A stretch of 64,000 nt of DNA. It comes from Escherichia phage Eps7. Shown here piece after piece: positions 7,442 to 24,267 of this stretch. Both the position numbers and the translations under genes were made by a program. Where the stretch lies: sequence record NC_010583.1; one strand, written 5' to 3'. The notes beneath the pieces were generated by a model that worked only from the letters and a program-made list of their open reading frames with translations, was not told where the DNA came from and ran no database searches. Position 1 is the first letter of the stretch; each line of letters begins with the position of its first letter.

Positions 7442-8134
7442 TTATTTGTTAACGCGTACAAAGTATCCTTTATAGGCTCCCATAATAGAGTTACCTAAGA
7501 ATACTAGCCACATTGCTAGGATTGCATAAGATGCACCTGTAGATTGAGCAGTTACAAGCCAAATGTACACAGTACCAATGTTAATAGCAATCCAAATCAG
7601 CCATTGTTCAGCATATTGTTTGACCATAAGCCACATAGCAATCACACTACCTACCGCAGTAAATGCATCCAACATTGGGAATGGATCAGCCGTAGTAGCA
7701 AGGAAACTACCATAACCTAACGTGGCTACTGCTAAAATCCCTAGAGTCAGCAAAGCTTGAGCTTTTGTCAGAACTTTAGTTGGAACATCCGGCAGATTAC
7801 TTGGCTTATTTTTATGCCATAAGTACATTCCATAAAACTGCATAGGAACGTAGTATAGCAGGTTTAGTGCAGCGTTACCATAAAGATCTGCGTTTAAAGC
7901 TGTAATACCATATGTAAGAACACCCACTAAGCCCCAAATATAGTTGGAAACACGTCCTTTTGCAACCAGAATAACACAAACCACATTGGTTATTGCAGTA
8001 GCCCAATCTAGAGCTGTACCATTATAGTTTGCTAAACTAATAAAGGCGACTGCTATAAACAGCCACAGATATTCCAGAGGTTTCCAGTTTTTAAAGTCAT
8101 TTACGAGATAGTTAGTCATATTAAAACTCTCCAA
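7442..8134 (-). CDS. pnuC: nicotinamide riboside transporter PnuC-like membrane protein
   Basis: 230-aa polytopic membrane protein; GMYLWHK and VKQYAEQWLIWIAINI match PnuC signatures GWYAW and RKYVENWLLWVIINV. Confidence 0.65.
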   Translation of the reverse strand: MESFNMTNYLVNDFKNWKPLEYLWLFIAVAFISLANYNGTALDWATAITNVVCVILVAKGRVSNYIWGLVGVLTYGITALNADLYGNAALNLLYYVPMQFYGMYLWHKNKPSNLPDVPTKVLTKAQALLTLGILAVATLGYGSFLATTADPFPMLDAFTAVGSVIAMWLMVKQYAEQWLIWIAINIGTVYIWLVTAQSTGASYAILAMWLVFLGNSIMGAYKGYFVRVNK

Positions 8135-9176
8135 AGATAAAGTGATGAATCAGCCAGTCTACTGCGTTTACTGCTTCGTCCATACGAACTTTGTAGTCCG
8201 GAGAGTCGATGTAAACAGTACGCCCTTCAGGGAACTGATTTGGAAATTCTTTCTTCATCTGCTCGAACAGTTCAGAAGTAATTGAACGATCGGAGTTAAT
8301 ACGTAAACCATCATCTACCCACTTGACAGTAGGCGCTAGAACAATTACTAAATCGTAATGTTCTTCTTTTGCAATTGCTGTAACCACAGGGTTCTTACTA
8401 TGTTCATAAAGTCTGTGGTAGAACTCAGTAATAAAAGCATTTGTATCCACAAACATGATCTTATTTGCAGTACGTTTTGCTTCAAACTCTAGCTCTTTGT
8501 GTCTGAACGCAATTTTACTATAGTCTTCGCTGGTAAGCAGATTTTCGTTACCAACTAGATCAACTTCACAATACGTTCGGCCATATTCTTTTACCCACGA
8601 AGTGTTGTATAGCTTCGCAAGGTATTTTGTTAAAGTAGTCTTTCCTGAGCTTTCAGTCCCAATGATTACAACCTTACGCACGTAATCTTTACGAACTACG
8701 CTAGGAAGAAACTCCCAATACTTCATAAGATCATTACGAATCATTGTAGCTGAGATTGGAACACGAGTCCGATCAGAATCTACAATATAATGACCAAACT
8801 TCGGCAGATATTTCTTATATTCTGCATCATAGTCTAGTTCGCTAGAGAAAATGGTGATCTCAGGCAAATGTCCGTAATTTTCATTAAGGATTCTAGCATA
8901 TTCCGGCCAACCATTCGGATATTCAGGAATATCATCTTCAATAATGTACTCTACCGAAATGTGCTCAATATCCGCGTAAGTTTGTTCTAACCAACGAAGT
9001 CGATTCTTTAACTGTAATACTTCCTGATCACGTGTGTTCTGCTTATCCAGCCAACGATTATCATGACTAACTACAACAATAACTCGTTCACACATAGTTG
9101 CTGCTGTGTTTATTAGGTTAATATGACCACGCGTTAATGGCGCGAACTTACCAATTACTAGACCAGTCTTAATCAT
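8121..9176 (-). CDS. nadR: NadR-like bifunctional NMN adenylyltransferase / ribosylnicotinamide kinase
   Basis: N-terminal nucleotidyltransferase motif GKFAPLTRGH (HxGH), C-terminal P-loop GTESSGKTT; true start MIKTGL (track MREESN prefix is leader). Confidence 0.65.
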   Translation of the reverse strand: MIKTGLVIGKFAPLTRGHINLINTAATMCERVIVVVSHDNRWLDKQNTRDQEVLQLKNRLRWLEQTYADIEHISVEYIIEDDIPEYPNGWPEYARILNENYGHLPEITIFSSELDYDAEYKKYLPKFGHYIVDSDRTRVPISATMIRNDLMKYWEFLPSVVRKDYVRKVVIIGTESSGKTTLTKYLAKLYNTSWVKEYGRTYCEVDLVGNENLLTSEDYSKIAFRHKELEFEAKRTANKIMFVDTNAFITEFYHRLYEHSKNPVVTAIAKEEHYDLVIVLAPTVKWVDDGLRINSDRSITSELFEQMKKEFPNQFPEGRTVYIDSPDYKVRMDEAVNAVDWLIHHFIFGEF

Positions 9177-9202
9177 ATTTGATTCCTCTCTCAAATTTAT
9201 AA

Positions 9203-9250
9203 ATATATTATACAGAGAATTTAGCGTTCAAGCAATCGAATTTTTAAACT
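9203..9250 (-). promoter_or_regulatory. T5-type early promoter cassette (drives nadR-pnuC)
   Basis: RC: -35 ATTGCT, -10 TATAAT, conserved leader with GAGAGAGGAATCAA RBS. Confidence 0.55.
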
Positions 9251-16900: not shown

Positions 16901-17377
16901 TTACATCTCAGCAAGTTCTTGCTCAGTAATTACAGTATTGCATAGAGCATCAACTTCTTCATTACCACGAATACCTGAGTGACCTTTAACCTTAACAAAG
17001 GTTGGATTGGTATCATGGAAGTTAATATACTGTTGAGTTAGTTTAAATGCTTCTTGCCAGAGTTCTAGATTAAGAGGAGTTTCACCATCTCCCTTCTTCC
17101 AGCCTTTCTTCTGCCAAGACCACATCCAGCTTTCCATACCATTTTTGCAGTAAGCAGAATCAGTGTAGATAATTACTGGACGATTATCTTTCTTAGTAGA
17201 CCAACGAAGAACTTCTACAATTGCAGTAAGTTCCATTTCGTTATTAGTAGTTTTAGGGCTGAAGCCAGATTTAGAGCCAATACGATCATCATTATCATTA
17301 TAGACAACGAATCCCCACGCACCTAAACCAGGATTGCCTTTACATGCACCATCTGTATATATGTGGAAAACCGACAT
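16901..17377 (-). CDS. rnh: ribonuclease H (RNase HI-like)
   Basis: Motifs YTDGAC.GNPG.G, ELTA, IYTDS.Y, KVKGHSG..GNEE.D; start at MSVFH with GGAG RBS. Confidence 0.7.
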   Translation of the reverse strand: MSVFHIYTDGACKGNPGLGAWGFVVYNDNDDRIGSKSGFSPKTTNNEMELTAIVEVLRWSTKKDNRPVIIYTDSAYCKNGMESWMWSWQKKGWKKGDGETPLNLELWQEAFKLTQQYINFHDTNPTFVKVKGHSGIRGNEEVDALCNTVITEQELAEM

Positions 17378-17646
17378 TATTTGCTCCAATCAATTTCAAG
17401 CCAAAAACCTTCACGCTGTTCATACTTAGCTTCTACAACATAACCTAGTTTGCTAAGTTTTTGCATGACGCTATTTCTAGCGTTTTCTGAGTATTCAGTT
17501 AATCCCTGGATGTGACAGTTAAATTCTTTATCTTTAATAGCTTTGTCAATCTCTACGGCAATAAGTGATTCTAGGTCAATTACTTCCTTTTTAATGCTAG
17601 CAATAGTATTTTGTTTTGCTTCTAAAGCAGATAAAAGAATAGACAT
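17377..17646 (-). CDS. hypothetical protein (89 aa)
   Basis: ORF; ATGA overlap with rnh. Confidence 0.5.
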   Translation of the reverse strand: MSILLSALEAKQNTIASIKKEVIDLESLIAVEIDKAIKDKEFNCHIQGLTEYSENARNSVMQKLSKLGYVVEAKYEQREGFWLEIDWSK

Positions 17647-17648
17647 AT

Positions 17649-18227
17649 TTATTCTCCAATTACTAAAACATCATGTTGGGAAGATACACCACACATATAA
17701 TCTGCACAATGCGTAAAAGCCAGATCAATGATTTCAAATATATCATCTACATCTAAATCTGTGGCTCGACAATCCGCAATAGCTAAACCTGTACGAATAC
17801 TGGAAAGTACATCTTCTCCTCCACAGCCTACACCGGCATATTCAACTTCTAGAATAGAAGCATTAGATTGGAAAATAAAGATTCTTCCTTTGTAGAGCAT
17901 AATAAATTGTCCCAGATTAGGTTCAGCATATTTTTCATTTTTCTTTTCGCCAAAATCTTTCTGGTTAAACATATCACGTAATTTAGGTACTATTTCCGTA
18001 TATAAATATTTATCATCGGAAATATCTGCTAAACGTGGTGGTACAGTAAAGCTATGCTCTAGTAATTGTCCCATGTAGAAGGAACTAGTGTATCCGAAGT
18101 ACAAATCATCAGAGATTTTGAATACTTTCGGATTTTTAACCAGCAGTTTCGTATAGCCATTAGAACCCATACGATCACCAGCTAAGTATACTTTATCTTT
18201 ATATTTAAATGCTACTATGGCTGTCAT
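17649..18227 (-). CDS. HslV-like / proteasome-type Ntn-hydrolase peptidase
   Basis: Begins M-TAIVAFKYKDKVYLAGDRMGS (Thr right after Met; compare HslV TTIVSVRR...GD); about 190 aa. Confidence 0.5.
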   Translation of the reverse strand: MTAIVAFKYKDKVYLAGDRMGSNGYTKLLVKNPKVFKISDDLYFGYTSSFYMGQLLEHSFTVPPRLADISDDKYLYTEIVPKLRDMFNQKDFGEKKNEKYAEPNLGQFIMLYKGRIFIFQSNASILEVEYAGVGCGGEDVLSSIRTGLAIADCRATDLDVDDIFEIIDLAFTHCADYMCGVSSQHDVLVIGE

Positions 18228-18243
18228 TATTAAATCCTTCTGT

Positions 18244-18295
18244 CAAATTAGAAGTATATTATATTTGAATTTCACTCAGTAAGCAAATGAAATTT
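18244..18295 (-). promoter_or_regulatory. T5-type early promoter cassette
   Basis: RC: -35 TTTGCT, -10 TATAAT. Confidence 0.45.
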
Positions 18296-18302
18296 AAATA
18301 TA

Positions 18303-18322
18303 ATAGCCCCGAAGGGCTATTT
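18303..18322 (-). terminator. intrinsic terminator hairpin
   Basis: atagccccgaagggctat directly downstream of 18326-18679 gene. Confidence 0.45.
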
Positions 18323-18325
18323 GAA

Positions 18326-18679
18326 TTAGATTATAATCAAGATTATTAGGGCGTATGTCAGATAATGCAGTAACTGATCAAATCCTAAAGCTATCCAAAA
18401 CTTAGCATCGCTTATAGCATATTTACAGCGTTGTGCTTTCCAATAATCTATAATAAAGTGTAGAATTAATTCCATAATAGCTAAAGCTATAGACATTCCT
18501 GGTGATGTGAATAGGATTAGAATTGCAAATGTTAATCCAGCATGTACTAGCGAATGGGTTAATAATGGAAGTTTCCACCCTATTTTATGCGTCTTTCTTA
18601 GCATATATGGTGTTTGGAGTGGATAATCGGCCATAAAATGTTTTAGAAAGAATATGACAAATAATAGTATAATTAACAT
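18326..18679 (-). CDS. hypothetical integral membrane protein (117 aa)
   Basis: Multiple hydrophobic TM-like segments. Confidence 0.5.
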   Translation of the reverse strand: MLIILLFVIFFLKHFMADYPLQTPYMLRKTHKIGWKLPLLTHSLVHAGLTFAILILFTSPGMSIALAIMELILHFIIDYWKAQRCKYAISDAKFWIALGFDQLLHYLTYALIILIII

Positions 18680-18682
18680 ATG

Positions 18683-19537
18683 TTACACCGTAAATGGATA
18701 TGCAATAGCAGGATGGTGTTCATAGCCACGAACAGTAAAATCATCCTTACTTACCCACGTTAATACATCATCCAAAGTTCTAATATTTGGATTGATTTCT
18801 AAAGTAGGAGGTGCAAAAGGTTCACGATCGAATTGCTTGTGCTCCATCAGAACATTATACTGATCTTCATAGATATGAAGATTAATAATCTTTTGACGAG
18901 CAATACCTGGCTTAAGACCTGTAATCTGTGCCATAATAGCTAGAAGTGCATAGCATTGCACCATATTAAATACTTGGCCCAGCAAGAAATCATTAGACCT
19001 CTGGAAAGAGTTTAGGTATAGTGTATCACCTAAAATAGAGAATTGATGGGTATGCATACACGGACGTAGGCATCCTTTACGAAATTCCCCACGGGTTCCA
19101 AAAGTTAAAATTTCTCCACGATCGTCAATCCCTCTTTTCAAATTATGATAGACTTTGGCTAACTGATCAAATACCATACCATCAGAATTAGTCCAATGAC
19201 GTCCTTGAACACCATAGACTCGTCCCATATCATCCTCGCCTTTACGGAATGGATTACCTAGCCAGGCAATATTTTCATTTGCATTAGCATTCCATGTATT
19301 AACACCAATAGCGCGGAATTGTGCTGCTGAGTCGTACCCACGGAGATATCCGATCATTTCCATTATTGCTTGTTTAGCAAATGCTTTACGAGTAGTTACT
19401 AGCGGCAGTTCTCCTGCTCCTACGTTAAAGGTAAAGTCTGCATCAATAATGGTTAGGCAACGAACCCCTGTTCTAGGATTCGTTACCCATACACCCTCTT
19501 CAAGAATACGTTTTCCAGTTTCAATATATTGCTTCAT
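18683..19537 (-). CDS. thyA: thymidylate synthase
   Basis: Conserved ThyA blocks: PLVTTRK, active-site region [11 protein letters not shown] (PCH), [14 protein letters not shown] and YALLAIMAQ. Confidence 0.8.
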
Positions 19538-21235: not shown

Positions 21236-21282
21236 AATATTATAGCAAATCTGGTAGCGATTAGCAAGTAAAATTATAAACT
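21236..21282 (-). promoter_or_regulatory. T5-type early promoter cassette (upstream of nrdB)
   Basis: RC: -35 CTTGCT, -10 TATAAT. Confidence 0.45.
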
Positions 21283-21756
21283 ATCAAGCTCCAATAGTTT
21301 AGCATCGCGCCATTCTATAGCATCCTCTAATTCTTTAAATGTTTTAGTATGTTTTACACCTTTCCTAGCTATTTGGACTTGATAAGATCCACTTGCTTTT
21401 TGGTGTATATTTTTAATACCTAACTTATTGTCCTTATGTGCTCCAACGTTCTTTCCATTACTAAATCTGTTAGAGGCTAGTAAATTAATTGCTCTATTAT
21501 CATGACGTATTCTATTATCATGATCTACTTCTTTTGGGATGTACCCATGCGTAATATAGAATGCTAGGATATGTGCGTAGTATTTTGTACCTCTTACCTG
21601 CATTACTATGTATCCTGAGCATTTTTCCAAAGAGCCTGCCTCTTTGCCTGCAAACTTAGTATTAAATGATTTATCTTCTCTAGGTTTGTGGGTAAAGATT
21701 CCGGTTTCTGGATTATAGTCAAATAACTCAGCTATTTCTTTGTATTTTTCTTCCAT
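21274..21756 (-). CDS. HNH homing endonuclease
   Basis: HNH motif VDHDNRIRHDNRAINLL...N; free-standing gene inserted between nrdA and nrdB. Confidence 0.7.
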   Translation of the reverse strand: MEEKYKEIAELFDYNPETGIFTHKPREDKSFNTKFAGKEAGSLEKCSGYIVMQVRGTKYYAHILAFYITHGYIPKEVDHDNRIRHDNRAINLLASNRFSNGKNVGAHKDNKLGIKNIHQKASGSYQVQIARKGVKHTKTFKELEDAIEWRDAKLLELDSL

Positions 21757-21811: not shown

Positions 21812-24204
21812 TTATAATTGACAACCACCAGATGCGCATCCAGCAGCAGCTTCCTCTCCTGCACCTCCACCATTTTCAGTGTTGAAGTTTGCATAATAAA
21901 AGGTTTTCCAACCGTACTTAACAGCAGTCATAAAGTCACGAACTACTACTGGGCCGGGAATGATTTCATTCTCGAACTTGGTGTAGTCATAGTACATATT
22001 CGTACTGATAGACTGGCTGAAGAATTTCTGCATGGTTGCTACCCATTTGATCCACTCGATACGATCTACATCATAAGCCAGTTTATAGCTCATTAATGTA
22101 TCCCAATCAGTTGCACCTGGAGCAATTGCAATTACTTTATTAACTGCACTACCCTTGATAGATACGATCTTACGGGGCGGTTCGATAGAGTTAGTAACAC
22201 CTAGCAGTACAGAGGAACTTTCACCTGGCATCTGAGCAGTCAGAACAGAGTTGCGCATACCATATTTCAGAATATCTGCACGCAGAGATTCCCAATCCAT
22301 TTCTAGACCTACAGTTACCAGTTCATCAACAGTTTTCTTGTACGTGTCGATTACCAGAGTTCCTTGCGAAGGCTTAGTACGATTAAACCAGTCACATGCA
22401 CCTTGTTCTTTAGCCAGACGTACAGAGGCTTTATGTAGGAAGTAGGACAGCTTTTCAGCTTCACGGTGAATCCAGTTACGTGCTTCAACACCTTCGTAAG
22501 CCAAACCTTCTGCTGCCATTGCACCTGCTGCGTTCATCAGACCAATACCAACGTTACGACGTTTCTTAGCCGTGTACTTCCATAGTTGGGAATGGGTAAT
22601 CCTGAATCTCGATGATTGTATCAACGAATTTCAGAAGGATGTAGCAAGTTTTCTCCCATTCAGCCAGAGATTCCATGCGGCCTAGTACAACACCACCTAA
22701 GTTACACAGAGATACTTCACCAATATCTTCTGGACGCATATCGTCTAACTGATCTTGGGTTTTATACAGTTCCGTAACGTGATGGAATGGACGGGTGGCT
22801 GAGTAATTCAACACAAAAGGGTTGGTCATACGAATCGGGTCAAGGAAGTTACCATGACGGTTAGATTCACCAATGTGATGAGCATACATACGCCCTGTTT
22901 CCATACGGATACGTAACCAAGTATCTAGGATTTCTTTTGCAGAGATTCTAGGAGCTGCTGGAATTGTTTTTCCTTCGTGGTCGATCTTTGTAAGAGAAGC
23001 CACACGTTTCTCCGCTGCCACGTAGATTTCTTCAAACTTAGCCTCATCTTCACCATAAAACGCTTCATGAACTTCTGGTGCGTAGAAGTAGGACATTAGC
23101 GTAATATCTTCGTTTTTCAGGTAACGTTTTAACAGAAGGTTGTTAAAGCTCAGAGAATAATCCATCTTATCGATTTTATTCTCGTCTGTAGCACGTTGCT
23201 GCTTAACCTGCATCAACTGAATGATTTCAGGATCGAAGTATGGATAAGACACAGTAGCAGAACCGCCACGGGTTTGCTGAGTGTTAGCTTTTACTGATCG
23301 GTCAATGTGTCGATAATATGGCAGTTTTCCGGAATGCGGGAATGCCCCATTTCGCACCGGATCAGCAATTGATCGGCTTTCAAGATGATACCCGATTCCC
23401 GCTCTGGCTGCGACCATTTTGAAGACGATGTGCTCGGCTGTGTCGATTGAATCCAGCGTGTCAGTGGAATCCACGAGACAGCAACTAGCAAATCCACGGT
23501 CACTAGAGCGCAGGCCAACCAGTGGCGGCGTAGGAACGTTGATTTTGTGGAGCGACATTGCATTGTAGAGGTCGATTGCATCTAGGATTGTCCAGTTAGG
23601 TTGAGATAACATCGCCATTGCCATACCCATGTAGGCAAACTGCGGGGTTTCATAAATTTCACCAGTTGCAATATTACGACGAGAATACTTGTCGAAGAAC
23701 TGTTTCAGTCCACCACTGGTGAATAAACGATCGCGATCATGATCAATAACTTGGTTCAGAGCGTCAAACTGATCATCGCTAATCCATGCACTCATGTCTT
23801 CCCAGCGCCAACACGAACCATATGATCGTGGAAGAAACGCAGAGAAGGGGTTCAAAGGAATCATATAGGCGTTTACGCATCTGCGCAAGACGTAATTCCT
23901 TTGCTACAGTATCATATGCTGGGTTGTCTTTGATAAGACCTTCAGCGGCTTTAATTAACACATCTTGGAGGGTATCGGAATCTACAACACCTTTTGGTAG
24001 ATTTTTCTGGGCAGACATAACGACGGCAGACCAACTTACGTCAGTTGCTTTACATGCCCATGCAGCCCAATCATTGAGTTTTTCAGGAGCAAAGTCCTGA
24101 ACAGTACCGTCACGTTTAATTACTTTTTCAATACTATGGCTCATTGGGGTTTCCTTTTTGTAGTTATCAGGATTTAGGAAATATTCTACTTTGTTTTGGG
24201 TCAT
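21812..24204 (-). CDS. nrdA: ribonucleotide reductase class Ia alpha subunit (three apparent frameshifts)
   Basis: ATP-cone N-terminus, catalytic core ...VIDHDRD..., ...RRNVGIGLMNAAG..., C-terminal CxxxGGC tail; fragments join at G4 tract 23847-23850 (restores FEPP), at 23799-23800 and near 22575-22581. Confidence 0.75.
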
Positions 24205-24267
24205 TATGCAAGTACAATTTTACAGATAAAAAGAGCCCGGATATTTTCATACCCAGGCTCGTCTGTC

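What the first reader, a model, noticed from the sequence alone, without database searches (positions are those of the whole stretch)
17649..18227. HslV-like N-terminal-nucleophile peptidase in the early region
The protein begins Met-Thr (MTAIVAFKYKDKVYLAGDRMGS), like HslV and proteasome beta subunits whose Thr1 is exposed after Met removal, and has a GD motif at a similar spacing. A phage-encoded HslV-like peptidase with no HslU partner in the window could hijack host HslU or act alone on host proteins.
Basis: inference. Interest (0 to 1): 0.5.

Follow-up and report, generated by a model that had tools for sequence, protein, structure and literature searches.

The report
Phage proteasome-like threonine peptidase gene
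A T5-like Salmonella/E. coli phage carries an intact, early-transcribed gene for a small proteasome-family threonine peptidase, but this gene family is already annotated and described in phages, it is not a true HslV, and nothing points to use of the host HslU.

Summary

It is not HslV proper. No NCBIfam HslV model matches. The family profile scores only 45 bits on HslV, whereas HslVs score 233-375 bits on each other. The pore loop is longer than in HslV. No HslU homolog lies in the window or beside 160 related loci. Its features and distribution (Azospirillum, Rhizobiales, Streptomyces, many phages) fit the "AAH" proteasome homolog of Fuchs, Alva and Lupas (2021), which has no known ATPase partner.

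The identical protein has been public since phage EPS7, and RefSeq labels it "peptidase HslV family". It occupies a variable accessory slot between thy and rnh, behind a promoter shared with T5; T5 itself lacks the gene.

Moderate-to-low interest.

The parts
17649..18227 (-). CDS of the 192-aa proteasome-like (AAH-type) N-terminal-threonine peptidase. Catalytic Thr2, Asp18 and Lys34 correspond to Thr1, Asp17 and Lys33 after Met removal. Also Gly45, Gly134-Cys135-Gly136, and the family motif G45-Y-T-S-S-F-Y-M-G-Q54.
18258..18286 (-). Promoter-like element TTGCTT-17 nt-TATAAT. It is homologous to the annotated T5 promoter in the thy-rnh intergenic region (NC_005859 46937-47011).
   Evidence: The consensus scanner missed it because only 3 of 6 bases of the -35 hexamer match.
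18302..18321 (-). 8-bp hairpin with a TTCG loop (AATAGCCC-TTCG-GGGCTATT) followed by an A/T-rich tail. It lies just after the DUF3307 stop codon and is conserved in T5. Probably a terminator or processing site that separates thy/DUF3307 from the peptidase transcription unit.
   Evidence: A terminator is annotated between thy and the next gene in phage HASG4. Not called by the scan.
18235..18239 (-). Shine-Dalgarno AAGGA, 7 nt upstream of the ATG.
17377..17646 (-). Downstream 89-aa ORF (phrog_13270, unknown function). Its ATG lies 2 nt after the peptidase stop codon and its 3' end overlaps the start of rnh. It is in the same transcription unit but is not an obligate partner.
   Evidence: It is found in 222 phage records, against about 124 T5-like records that carry the peptidase. 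It occurs without the peptidase in Stitch and HASG4.
18326..18679 (-). Upstream DUF3307 membrane protein (PF11750, phrog_2470). It is a separate accessory insertion between thy and the hairpin.
   Evidence: Absent in T5, Stitch, HASG4 and KKP_3711.
16901..17389 (-). RNase H (rnh), the core gene that follows the cassette. In T5 it is the first gene behind the same promoter.
18683..19537 (-). Thymidylate synthase (thy), the core gene that bounds the variable slot on the upstream side.

Best explanation
The gene encodes an intact member of the proteasome-like (MEROPS T1 / Pfam PF00227) family of N-terminal-threonine hydrolases. It belongs to the compact, propeptide-less branch rich in phage members, which best fits the 'AAH' group of Fuchs, Alva and Lupas (2021). 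It is not HslV.

Shown: the gene is transcribed with an 89-aa ORF and rnh, behind a promoter homologous to an annotated T5 promoter. It is an accessory gene in a swappable slot between thy and rnh.

Inferred: host methionine aminopeptidase removes Met1 and exposes Thr as residue 1. This is what happens to E. coli's own HslV, which also starts Met-Thr. Thr1 Ogamma is the nucleophile, assisted by Lys33 and Asp17, with the Gly45 backbone forming the oxyanion hole. Cys135 takes the place of proteasome Ser129.

Most speculative: like its nearest solved relatives BPH and HslV, the protein probably self-assembles into rings. It would cleave peptides or unfolded proteins in the infected cell without a dedicated ATPase. 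Its longer H2-S7 'pore loop' (residues about 90-107, lysine-rich) would take part in gating or substrate choice.
For: Family membership: Pfam PF00227 above the gathering score over the full length; PHROG 1040.

Active site: Thr2, Asp18, Lys34 and Gly45 in 168/168 relatives, and Gly134 in 167/168. 161/168 begin Met-Thr, so there is no propeptide.

Separate subfamily: members score above 150 bits on the family profile, while that profile gives HslV 45 bits, BPH 33 and bacterial beta subunits about 30. hhalign against E. coli HslV gives 97% probability but only 19% identity.

AAH-like distribution: 198 bacterial genome loci, dominated by Azospirillum, Rhizobiales, Streptomyces and Actinoplanes, and 367 viral contigs. 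This matches the description of AAH in PMC8665760.

No ATPase partner: no HslU homolog in the window or within 8 kb of 160 related loci. No recurrent AAA+ neighbour. The recurrent neighbours are TerL, portal, S78 protease or PhoH.

Promoter homology with T5.

Met removal precedent: E. coli hslV encodes (f)Met-Thr-Thr, and solved HslV chains begin at Thr.
Against: No activity, assembly state or substrate has been measured for any member of this branch. BPH, the closest solved relative, showed no activity on standard substrates in vitro (PMC5777263).

The proteasome Asp166 equivalent is not conserved in this family, and Ser129 is usually Cys, so the fine active-site chemistry may differ.

Assignment to 'AAH' rests on features and distribution. 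I could not compare the protein directly with the authors' representative sequence (WP_035979212).

Ring formation could not be modelled with the tools available, which predict single chains only and return no coordinates.
Confidence: 0.6

Rival explanations
1. The phage protein replaces or supplements host HslV and docks onto host HslU, making a hybrid ATP-dependent protease with altered specificity.
For: HslV is the best sequence match among solved structures (45 bits, E 8e-11). The hosts, E. coli and Salmonella, have hslVU. Under the hhalign alignment, one named HslU-pocket residue, HslV Phe54, aligns with the conserved Phe50 (pocket residues taken from PMC6429459).
Against: The family is common in Streptomyces and Actinoplanes. 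Table 1 of PMC8665760 records no HslV for Actinobacteria, so the family's function cannot depend on HslU in general.

Phe57 aligns with an invariant Gly and Gln114 with Glu. The basic pore cluster Arg86/Arg89/Lys90 is replaced, with about 9 extra residues inserted.

BPH, which is equally similar, did not pull down HslU (PMC5777263). No HslV model in NCBIfam matches. No hslU-like gene accompanies the gene anywhere.
Confidence: 0.08
2. The protein is an Ntn enzyme that is not a general protease. It could be a sequence-specific ligase or transpeptidase like connectase, or an amidase acting on a small molecule or on one defined protein target.
For: The proteasome-like family includes connectase, a specific protein ligase (PMC8665760). 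Three family members hit the connectase N-terminal Pfam model weakly. The invariant family-specific motif GYTSSF(R/Y)MGQ at the start of H1, and Cys in place of Ser129, suggest a specialised site.
Confidence: 0.12
3. The protein acts as a decoy or poison subunit. It would co-assemble with or titrate host HslV/HslU, or another host factor, to block host proteolysis, and catalysis would be irrelevant.
For: Phages are known to inhibit host proteases; T4 PinA against Lon and lambda cIII against FtsH are established examples (my own knowledge). The gene is expressed early.
Against: Strict conservation of the whole catalytic set (Thr, Asp, Lys, Gly) across 168 diverse members argues for selection on catalysis. 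The bacterial chromosomal members in Azospirillum and Streptomyces have no obvious reason to encode a decoy. Identity to HslV is only 19%, which makes mixed rings unlikely.
Confidence: 0.05
4. It is the capsid (prohead) maturation protease.
For: In a subset of related viral contigs and prophage-like loci, the homolog lies next to the terminase, portal and prohead-protease genes.
Against: Those same loci already encode a Peptidase_S78 prohead protease. In the window the gene sits in the early nucleotide-metabolism block behind an early promoter. T5 and many close relatives build capsids without it.
Confidence: 0.02

Closest known systems
[quoted passage not shown]
   Same: Compact subunit with H1-H4, no propeptide, and no C-terminal H5/S12. 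Thr1/Asp17/Lys33/Gly conserved. [quoted passage not shown] Bacterial members are concentrated in alpha-proteobacteria and Actinobacteria, with many phage copies. No AAA+ partner is known.
   Different: Membership is inferred from features and distribution. It was not tested by direct comparison with the authors' representative (WP_035979212) or their HMM. The T5-like clade has Ala rather than the usual Cys at mature position 2, and a lysine-rich pore loop.
HslV (ClpQ), peptidase of the HslVU protease
   Different: Only 16-19% identity. The family profile gives HslV 45 bits, while HslVs give each other 233-375 bits. No NCBIfam HslV hit. No hslU neighbour. The H2-S7 loop is longer and lacks the Arg86/Arg89/Lys90 cluster. 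GCG replaces GSG at the Ser129-equivalent position.
BPH (beta-proteobacterial proteasome homolog; PDB 5ovs, 5ovu)
   Different: 13-20% identity. The BPH pore loop is strongly acidic, whereas this one has mixed charge and is lysine-rich (KDFGEKKNEKYAEPNLGQ). BPH is cellular, with no phage members listed in Table 1 of PMC8665760.
[quoted passage not shown]
   Same: Phage-borne group I proteasome homologs. PHROG 1040 lumps them together with this protein. In Aeromonas phage 4L372D one such gene lies directly next to a homolog of this protein.
   Different: PPH is about 140 aa and lacks helix H2. This protein is 192 aa with a confident H2 at residues 71-89.

Membership tests
Proteasome-like superfamily (Pfam PF00227 / MEROPS T1) | Matches the family HMM above the curated threshold | tested here: met
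   38.5 bits against GA 22.4, E 1.2e-9, residues 2-189 on profile positions 5-188 of 189
Proteasome-like superfamily (Pfam PF00227 / MEROPS T1) | Four-layer alpha-beta-beta-alpha Ntn-hydrolase sandwich | tested here: met
Proteasome-like superfamily (Pfam PF00227 / MEROPS T1) | N-terminal Thr (or Ser) nucleophile exposed at residue 1 | tested here: met
   Thr2 follows Met1. Thr is present in 168/168 aligned relatives, and 161/168 start Met-Thr. Actual Met removal was not testable.
Proteasome-like superfamily (Pfam PF00227 / MEROPS T1) | Asp17, Lys33 and the oxyanion-hole Gly | tested here: met
   Asp18, Lys34 and Gly45 are invariant in 168/168
Proteasome-like superfamily (Pfam PF00227 / MEROPS T1) | Ser129 / Asp166 network that orients Thr1 | tested here: inconclusive
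   G-S-G is G-C-G here. The family has Cys in 104 and Ser in 52 of 168. No conserved Asp is found in the H4-S10 region.
Proteasome-like superfamily (Pfam PF00227 / MEROPS T1) | Peptide-bond hydrolysis; ring or double-ring assembly | not testable with these tools
   Needs biochemistry or multimer modelling
HslV (ClpQ) | Matches an HslV-specific model / HslV-level sequence similarity | tested here: not met
   NCBIfam lists no HslV model even at E up to 10. The family profile scores 45 bits on HslV, whereas E. coli HslV scores 233-375 bits on other HslVs.
HslV (ClpQ) | Encoded with, or functionally tied to, hslU | tested here: not met
   No HslU homolog in the 64-kb window or within 8 kb of 160 related loci
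HslV (ClpQ) | Short H2-S7 linker carrying the basic cluster Arg86/Arg89/Lys90 | tested here: not met
   hhalign places about 9 extra residues here and does not conserve the basic residues. The feature is described in PMC5777263.
HslV (ClpQ) | HslU C-tail pocket residues (Phe54, Phe57, Gln114 in E. coli and H. influenzae HslV) | tested here: inconclusive
   Under hhalign the pairs are Phe54/Phe50, Phe57/Gly53 and Gln114/Glu127. The alignment contains a doubtful 4-residue gap just before H1. Residue list from PMC6429459.
AAH (Fuchs et al. 2021) | [quoted passage not shown] | tested here: met
AAH (Fuchs et al. 2021) | Compact subunit: H1-H4 present, no insertions, no S12/H5, no propeptide | tested here: met
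AAH (Fuchs et al. 2021) | Distribution: alpha-proteobacteria and Actinobacteria, plus phages and scattered Firmicutes and Bacteroidetes | tested here: met
   Among the 80 best of 198 bacterial loci: Azospirillum, Mesorhizobium, Devosia, Streptomyces, Actinoplanes, one Cytobacillus, one Lachnospiraceae and one Bacteroidales. 367 viral contigs.
AAH (Fuchs et al. 2021) | Direct match to the authors' AAH representative or HMM | not testable with these tools
   WP_035979212 cannot be fetched. It did not turn up in the cluster look-up.
PPH (Fuchs et al. 2021) | About 140 residues, helix H2 missing | tested here: not met
   192 aa, with H2 predicted at residues 71-89 and pLDDT above 90
Connectase | Lacks H1/H2 and has a two-helix S3/S4 insertion over the active site | tested here: not met

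The most novel reading that the evidence does not exclude
An ATPase-independent viral 'mini-proteasome'. The peptidase would be made within minutes of infection from a T5-type early promoter. It would assemble on its own and selectively destroy host proteins, such as defence or stress-response factors, or recycle host protein into amino acids. Its position in a swappable accessory slot would reflect host-specific counter-defence. This would be the first functional role shown for any phage-encoded proteasome homolog.
Probability: 0.2. Interest if true: 0.65.

Novelty: already known. Interest (0 to 1): 0.3.

Why it matters
No phage-encoded proteasome homolog has a demonstrated activity, assembly state or substrate. 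The same is true of their closest cellular relatives without an ATPase partner, AAH and BPH. A T5-like phage that grows on E. coli K-12 and Salmonella is a very tractable system for studying one. The gene is intact and dispensable, since T5 lacks it. It sits behind a defined early promoter, and natural presence/absence variants exist among near-identical phages. The sequence finding adds nothing new to the databases. Its value is as a convenient entry point to the open question of what these ATPase-less proteasome homologs do.

Tried and rejected
1. Translating the given coordinates on the + strand gave only stops. The gene is on the minus strand.

2. A single-sequence search of PDB sequences gave only marginal hits to Plasmodium beta7 (E 0.013). 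A 100-sequence profile was needed to see HslV and BPH.

3. NCBIfam gave nothing above threshold.

4. I looked for a second proteasome-like subunit in the window, as exists in Aeromonas phage 4L372D. None was found.

5. Neighbour clustering around 160 related loci was dominated by shadow ORFs in high-GC genomes and by Azospirillum synteny (for example a large ORF that looks like an NAD synthetase; not checked against Pfam). No conserved partner emerged. The only recurrent real neighbours were the HK97-type packaging and head genes in a minority of loci, and PhoH in several large lytic phages.

6. I tried to find the AAH representative's accession through exact cluster look-ups of nine family members. 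It was not among them.

7. The consensus promoter/terminator scan did not exceed chance. It missed both the hairpin and the promoter, which became evident only by reading the sequence and aligning it to T5.

8. Mapping the HslU-pocket residues was ambiguous, because hhalign inserts a 4-residue gap before H1.

9. I considered forcing an oligomer prediction by concatenating copies. I rejected this because the tool returns no coordinates or PAE, and Thr1 is buried, so linkers would be unphysical.

10. The 89-aa downstream ORF was rejected as an obligate partner. It occurs in 222 phage records, many of them without the peptidase.

Full report
**1. What is there**

The coordinates are right, but the gene is on the minus strand. 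The + strand translation is full of stops. The minus strand carries a 192-aa ORF at 17649-18227 that begins MTAIVAFKYKDKVYLAGDRMGS.

The ATG at 18227 is the first start codon in its frame, and AAGGA lies 7 nt upstream.

The window is a T5-like phage of the genus Epseptimavirus (Demerecviridae), 99.6% identical to Salmonella phage OSY-STA over 4 kb. The neighbours are RNase H, thymidylate synthase, DHFR and RNR beta, all on the same strand.

**2. Is it an Ntn / proteasome-type peptidase?**

Yes.
- Pfam Proteasome (PF00227) is matched over the full length, at 38.5 bits against a gathering score of 22.4. PHROG 1040, 'peptidase HslV family', matches at E 1.9e-21.
- An AlphaFold2 model built on 18 homologs is confident (pLDDT 89.7, pTM 0.87). 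It has the strand/helix order of a beta-type subunit with helices H1-H4 and no H5.
- Foldseek against the PDB returns HslV and BPH at E about 1e-9, followed by hundreds of 20S beta chains.

Both were tested and neither holds.
- In 18 homologs down to 30% identity, M1, T2, G17, D18, K34 and G45 are invariant.
- In 168 sequences, including 148 representatives from an exhaustive profile search, Thr2, Asp18, Lys34 and Gly45 are present in 168/168. 161 of the 168 begin Met-Thr, so there is no propeptide.
- After Met removal these residues are Thr1, Asp17 and Lys33, the proteasome catalytic triad as given in PMC8665760.
- E. coli HslV itself is encoded as (f)Met-Thr-Thr, and solved chains start at Thr. 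The host therefore routinely matures such N-termini. Removal of Met before Thr by methionine aminopeptidase is established knowledge.

**3. Is it HslV?**

No.
- NCBIfam reports no HslV model, even at E up to 10.
- A 100-sequence family profile scores HslV at 45 bits, BPH at 33 and actinobacterial beta subunits at about 30. Family members score above 150 bits on the family profile, and E. coli HslV scores 233-375 bits on other HslVs.
- hhalign against E. coli HslV gives 97% probability but 19% identity. It shows about 9 extra residues in the loop after H2, where HslV has a short linker bearing Arg86/Arg89/Lys90 (PMC5777263).
- The Ser129-equivalent residue is Cys here, and is Cys in 104 and Ser in 52 of 168 family members.
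- The family carries its own invariant motif, G-[YF]-T-[ST]-S-F-[RY]-M-G-Q, at the start of H1.

**4. Which known family?**

Fuchs, Alva and Lupas (2021, PMC8665760) described 22 new proteasome homologs. PPH, AAH, CPH, PMI-4 and DAH have phage members.
- PPH is excluded. It has about 140 aa and no H2, whereas this protein has 192 aa and a confident H2 at residues 71-89.
- The features fit group I and specifically AAH. [quoted passage not shown]
- A scan of 100,044 species genomes found 198 loci. They are dominated by Azospirillum, Mesorhizobium, Devosia, Ensifer, Streptomyces and Actinoplanes, with Myxococcota, Paraburkholderia and single Firmicutes and Bacteroidales.
- A scan of IMG/VR found 367 viral contigs.
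- BFVD holds 26 viral cluster representatives with this fold at E up to 0.001.

I could not compare directly with the authors' AAH representative, so the assignment is well supported but indirect.

**5. Partner ATPase and context**
- E. coli HslU finds nothing in the window except a 13.9-bit P-loop match to the ORF at 8124-9227, which corresponds to the adenylyltransferase annotated in OSY-STA. It finds nothing at E up to 1e-3 among all ORFs within 8 kb of 160 related loci.
- Clustering of neighbours found no recurrent AAA+ protein. A minority of viral and prophage-like loci place the gene next to HNH, TerL, portal and the S78 prohead protease. Several large lytic phages place it near PhoH.
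- This agrees with the statement in PMC8665760 that no co-occurring AAA+ interactor could be found.
- The family is abundant in Actinobacteria, where that paper's Table 1 lists no HslV. Dependence on HslU therefore cannot be the family's general mechanism.

**6. Position and expression in the phage**

T5 itself has rnh directly after thy, separated only by an annotated promoter.

The 100 bp upstream of the peptidase are homologous to that T5 intergenic region. They hold an 8-bp hairpin with a TTCG loop (18302-18321) and then TTGCTT-17-TATAAT (18258-18286). The T5 rnh leader reappears just before rnh in the window.

The peptidase and the following 89-aa ORF therefore sit between a T5-type early promoter and rnh.

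The slot is variable:
- T5 has nothing there.
- Stitch and HASG4 have an 84-aa ORF plus the 89-aa ORF.
- The window, EPS7 and OSY-STA have DUF3307, the peptidase and the 89-aa ORF.
- Enterobacter phage KKP_3711 has a 63-aa ORF plus a peptidase that is 56% identical.

About 124 T5-like records carry the peptidase at 90% identity or more, out of 441 that match the region. The 89-aa ORF is in 222 records, so it is not an obligate partner. The peptidase is an accessory, dispensable early gene.

**7. Novelty**

The identical protein is public (ACB97546.1, among other accessions). It is named 'peptidase HslV family [Escherichia phage Eps7]' and carries the UniRef name 'ATP-dependent protease'. RefSeq records label it 'peptidase HslV family', and one GenBank record calls it 'proteasome subunit-like protein'.

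Phage-borne proteasome homologs were described in 2021 (PMC8665760). My searches of the held literature found no functional study of any of them.

**8. Mechanism, with steps marked**
- Shown: intact proteasome-family fold and catalytic residues, no propeptide, a promoter homologous to T5's, accessory status, and no HslU-like gene nearby.
- Inferred: Met removal by the host aminopeptidase; Thr1 as nucleophile with Lys33 and Asp17; Cys135 substituting for Ser129.
- Speculative: self-assembly into rings like BPH and HslV, ATP-independent cleavage of peptides or unfolded proteins in the infected cell, and a role for the lysine-rich pore loop (residues about 90-107) in gating.

The rivals are use of host HslU, a non-proteolytic Ntn activity, a decoy role and capsid maturation. 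Each is weighed in the rival list and all are less likely.

**9. Verdict**

The kind is already known and annotated, and its function is unknown. Interest is 0.3.

Noticed in passing
window 21872-24246 (minus strand): The RNR large subunit gene nrdA is broken across reading frames. T5 NrdA residues 2-134, 135-149, 150-558 and 558-793 align in frames -2, -1, -3 and -1. This could be frameshifts from sequencing errors or a pseudogene. The peptidase ORF itself is intact.
   Followed up: partly
window 17377-18679, compared with T5 (L002 16413-17862), Stitch (L167), HASG4 (L166) and KKP_3711 (L004): The thy-rnh junction is a cassette hot-spot with at least four alternative gene contents among T5-like phages. 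The options are: nothing; an 84-aa ORF plus the 89-aa ORF; DUF3307 plus the peptidase plus the 89-aa ORF; or a 63-aa ORF plus the peptidase.
   Followed up: partly
L003 4001-4552 and 4570-5454 (Aeromonas phage 4L372D); also L088-L092: Two different proteasome-like genes lie side by side. One is a homolog of the window protein (42% identity). The other is a 294-aa protein starting (M)TTIAYKNG, with GSGS and a highly acidic C-terminal extension of about 130 aa, resembling PPH or RPC. This suggests possible hetero-oligomers in some phages. The window has no second copy.
   Followed up: partly
L145 7454-7999 and 7971-8576 (IMG/VR contig): Two tandem paralogs of the family lie in one viral contig, scoring 131 and 225 bits on the family HMM.
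   Followed up: no
window protein residues 3 and 135; family alignment A2: Most family members have Cys right after the nucleophile (MTC..., 132/168). Most also have Cys at the proteasome Ser129-equivalent position (GCG, 104/168). The T5-like clade has Ala3 with Cys135. The two positions do not covary strictly. Redox sensitivity or altered chemistry is possible.
   Followed up: partly
proteins P0031, P0036, P0041, P0047, P0061, P0074, P0096: Some family representatives are 300-388 aa long, with the proteasome-like domain at the N-terminus and a long C-terminal extension of unknown nature.
   Followed up: no
L003, L005, L088-L092, L104, L111, L122; in OSY-STA (L001 20016-20768) PhoH lies about 6 kb beyond the peptidase: A PhoH-like P-loop ATPase (PF02562) recurs within 5 kb of the proteasome-like gene in several large lytic phage lineages. 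This may only reflect shared placement in auxiliary early-gene blocks.
   Followed up: partly
window 21274-21756 (minus strand): A 160-aa ORF lies between nrdB and nrdA, in the position where T5 has the HNH endonuclease hegH. OSY-STA annotates no gene there. I did not run a family search on this ORF.
   Followed up: no
BFVD hits A0A345MIR8 and A0A142KAQ6 (Gordonia phages Daredevil and Nymphadora): Phages of Actinobacteria encode proteins with this fold. Fuchs et al. reported finding no Actinobacteria-specific phages with AAH. Whether these proteins are AAH or another subfamily was not checked.
   Followed up: no
PHROG 1040: The PHROG labelled 'peptidase HslV family' is centred on the PPH/RPC-like type. 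Aeromonas gp162 scores 175 bits over profile positions 14-269 of 277, while the window protein scores only 78 bits. The label therefore merges at least two distinct proteasome-homolog subfamilies, neither of which is HslV.
   Followed up: partly
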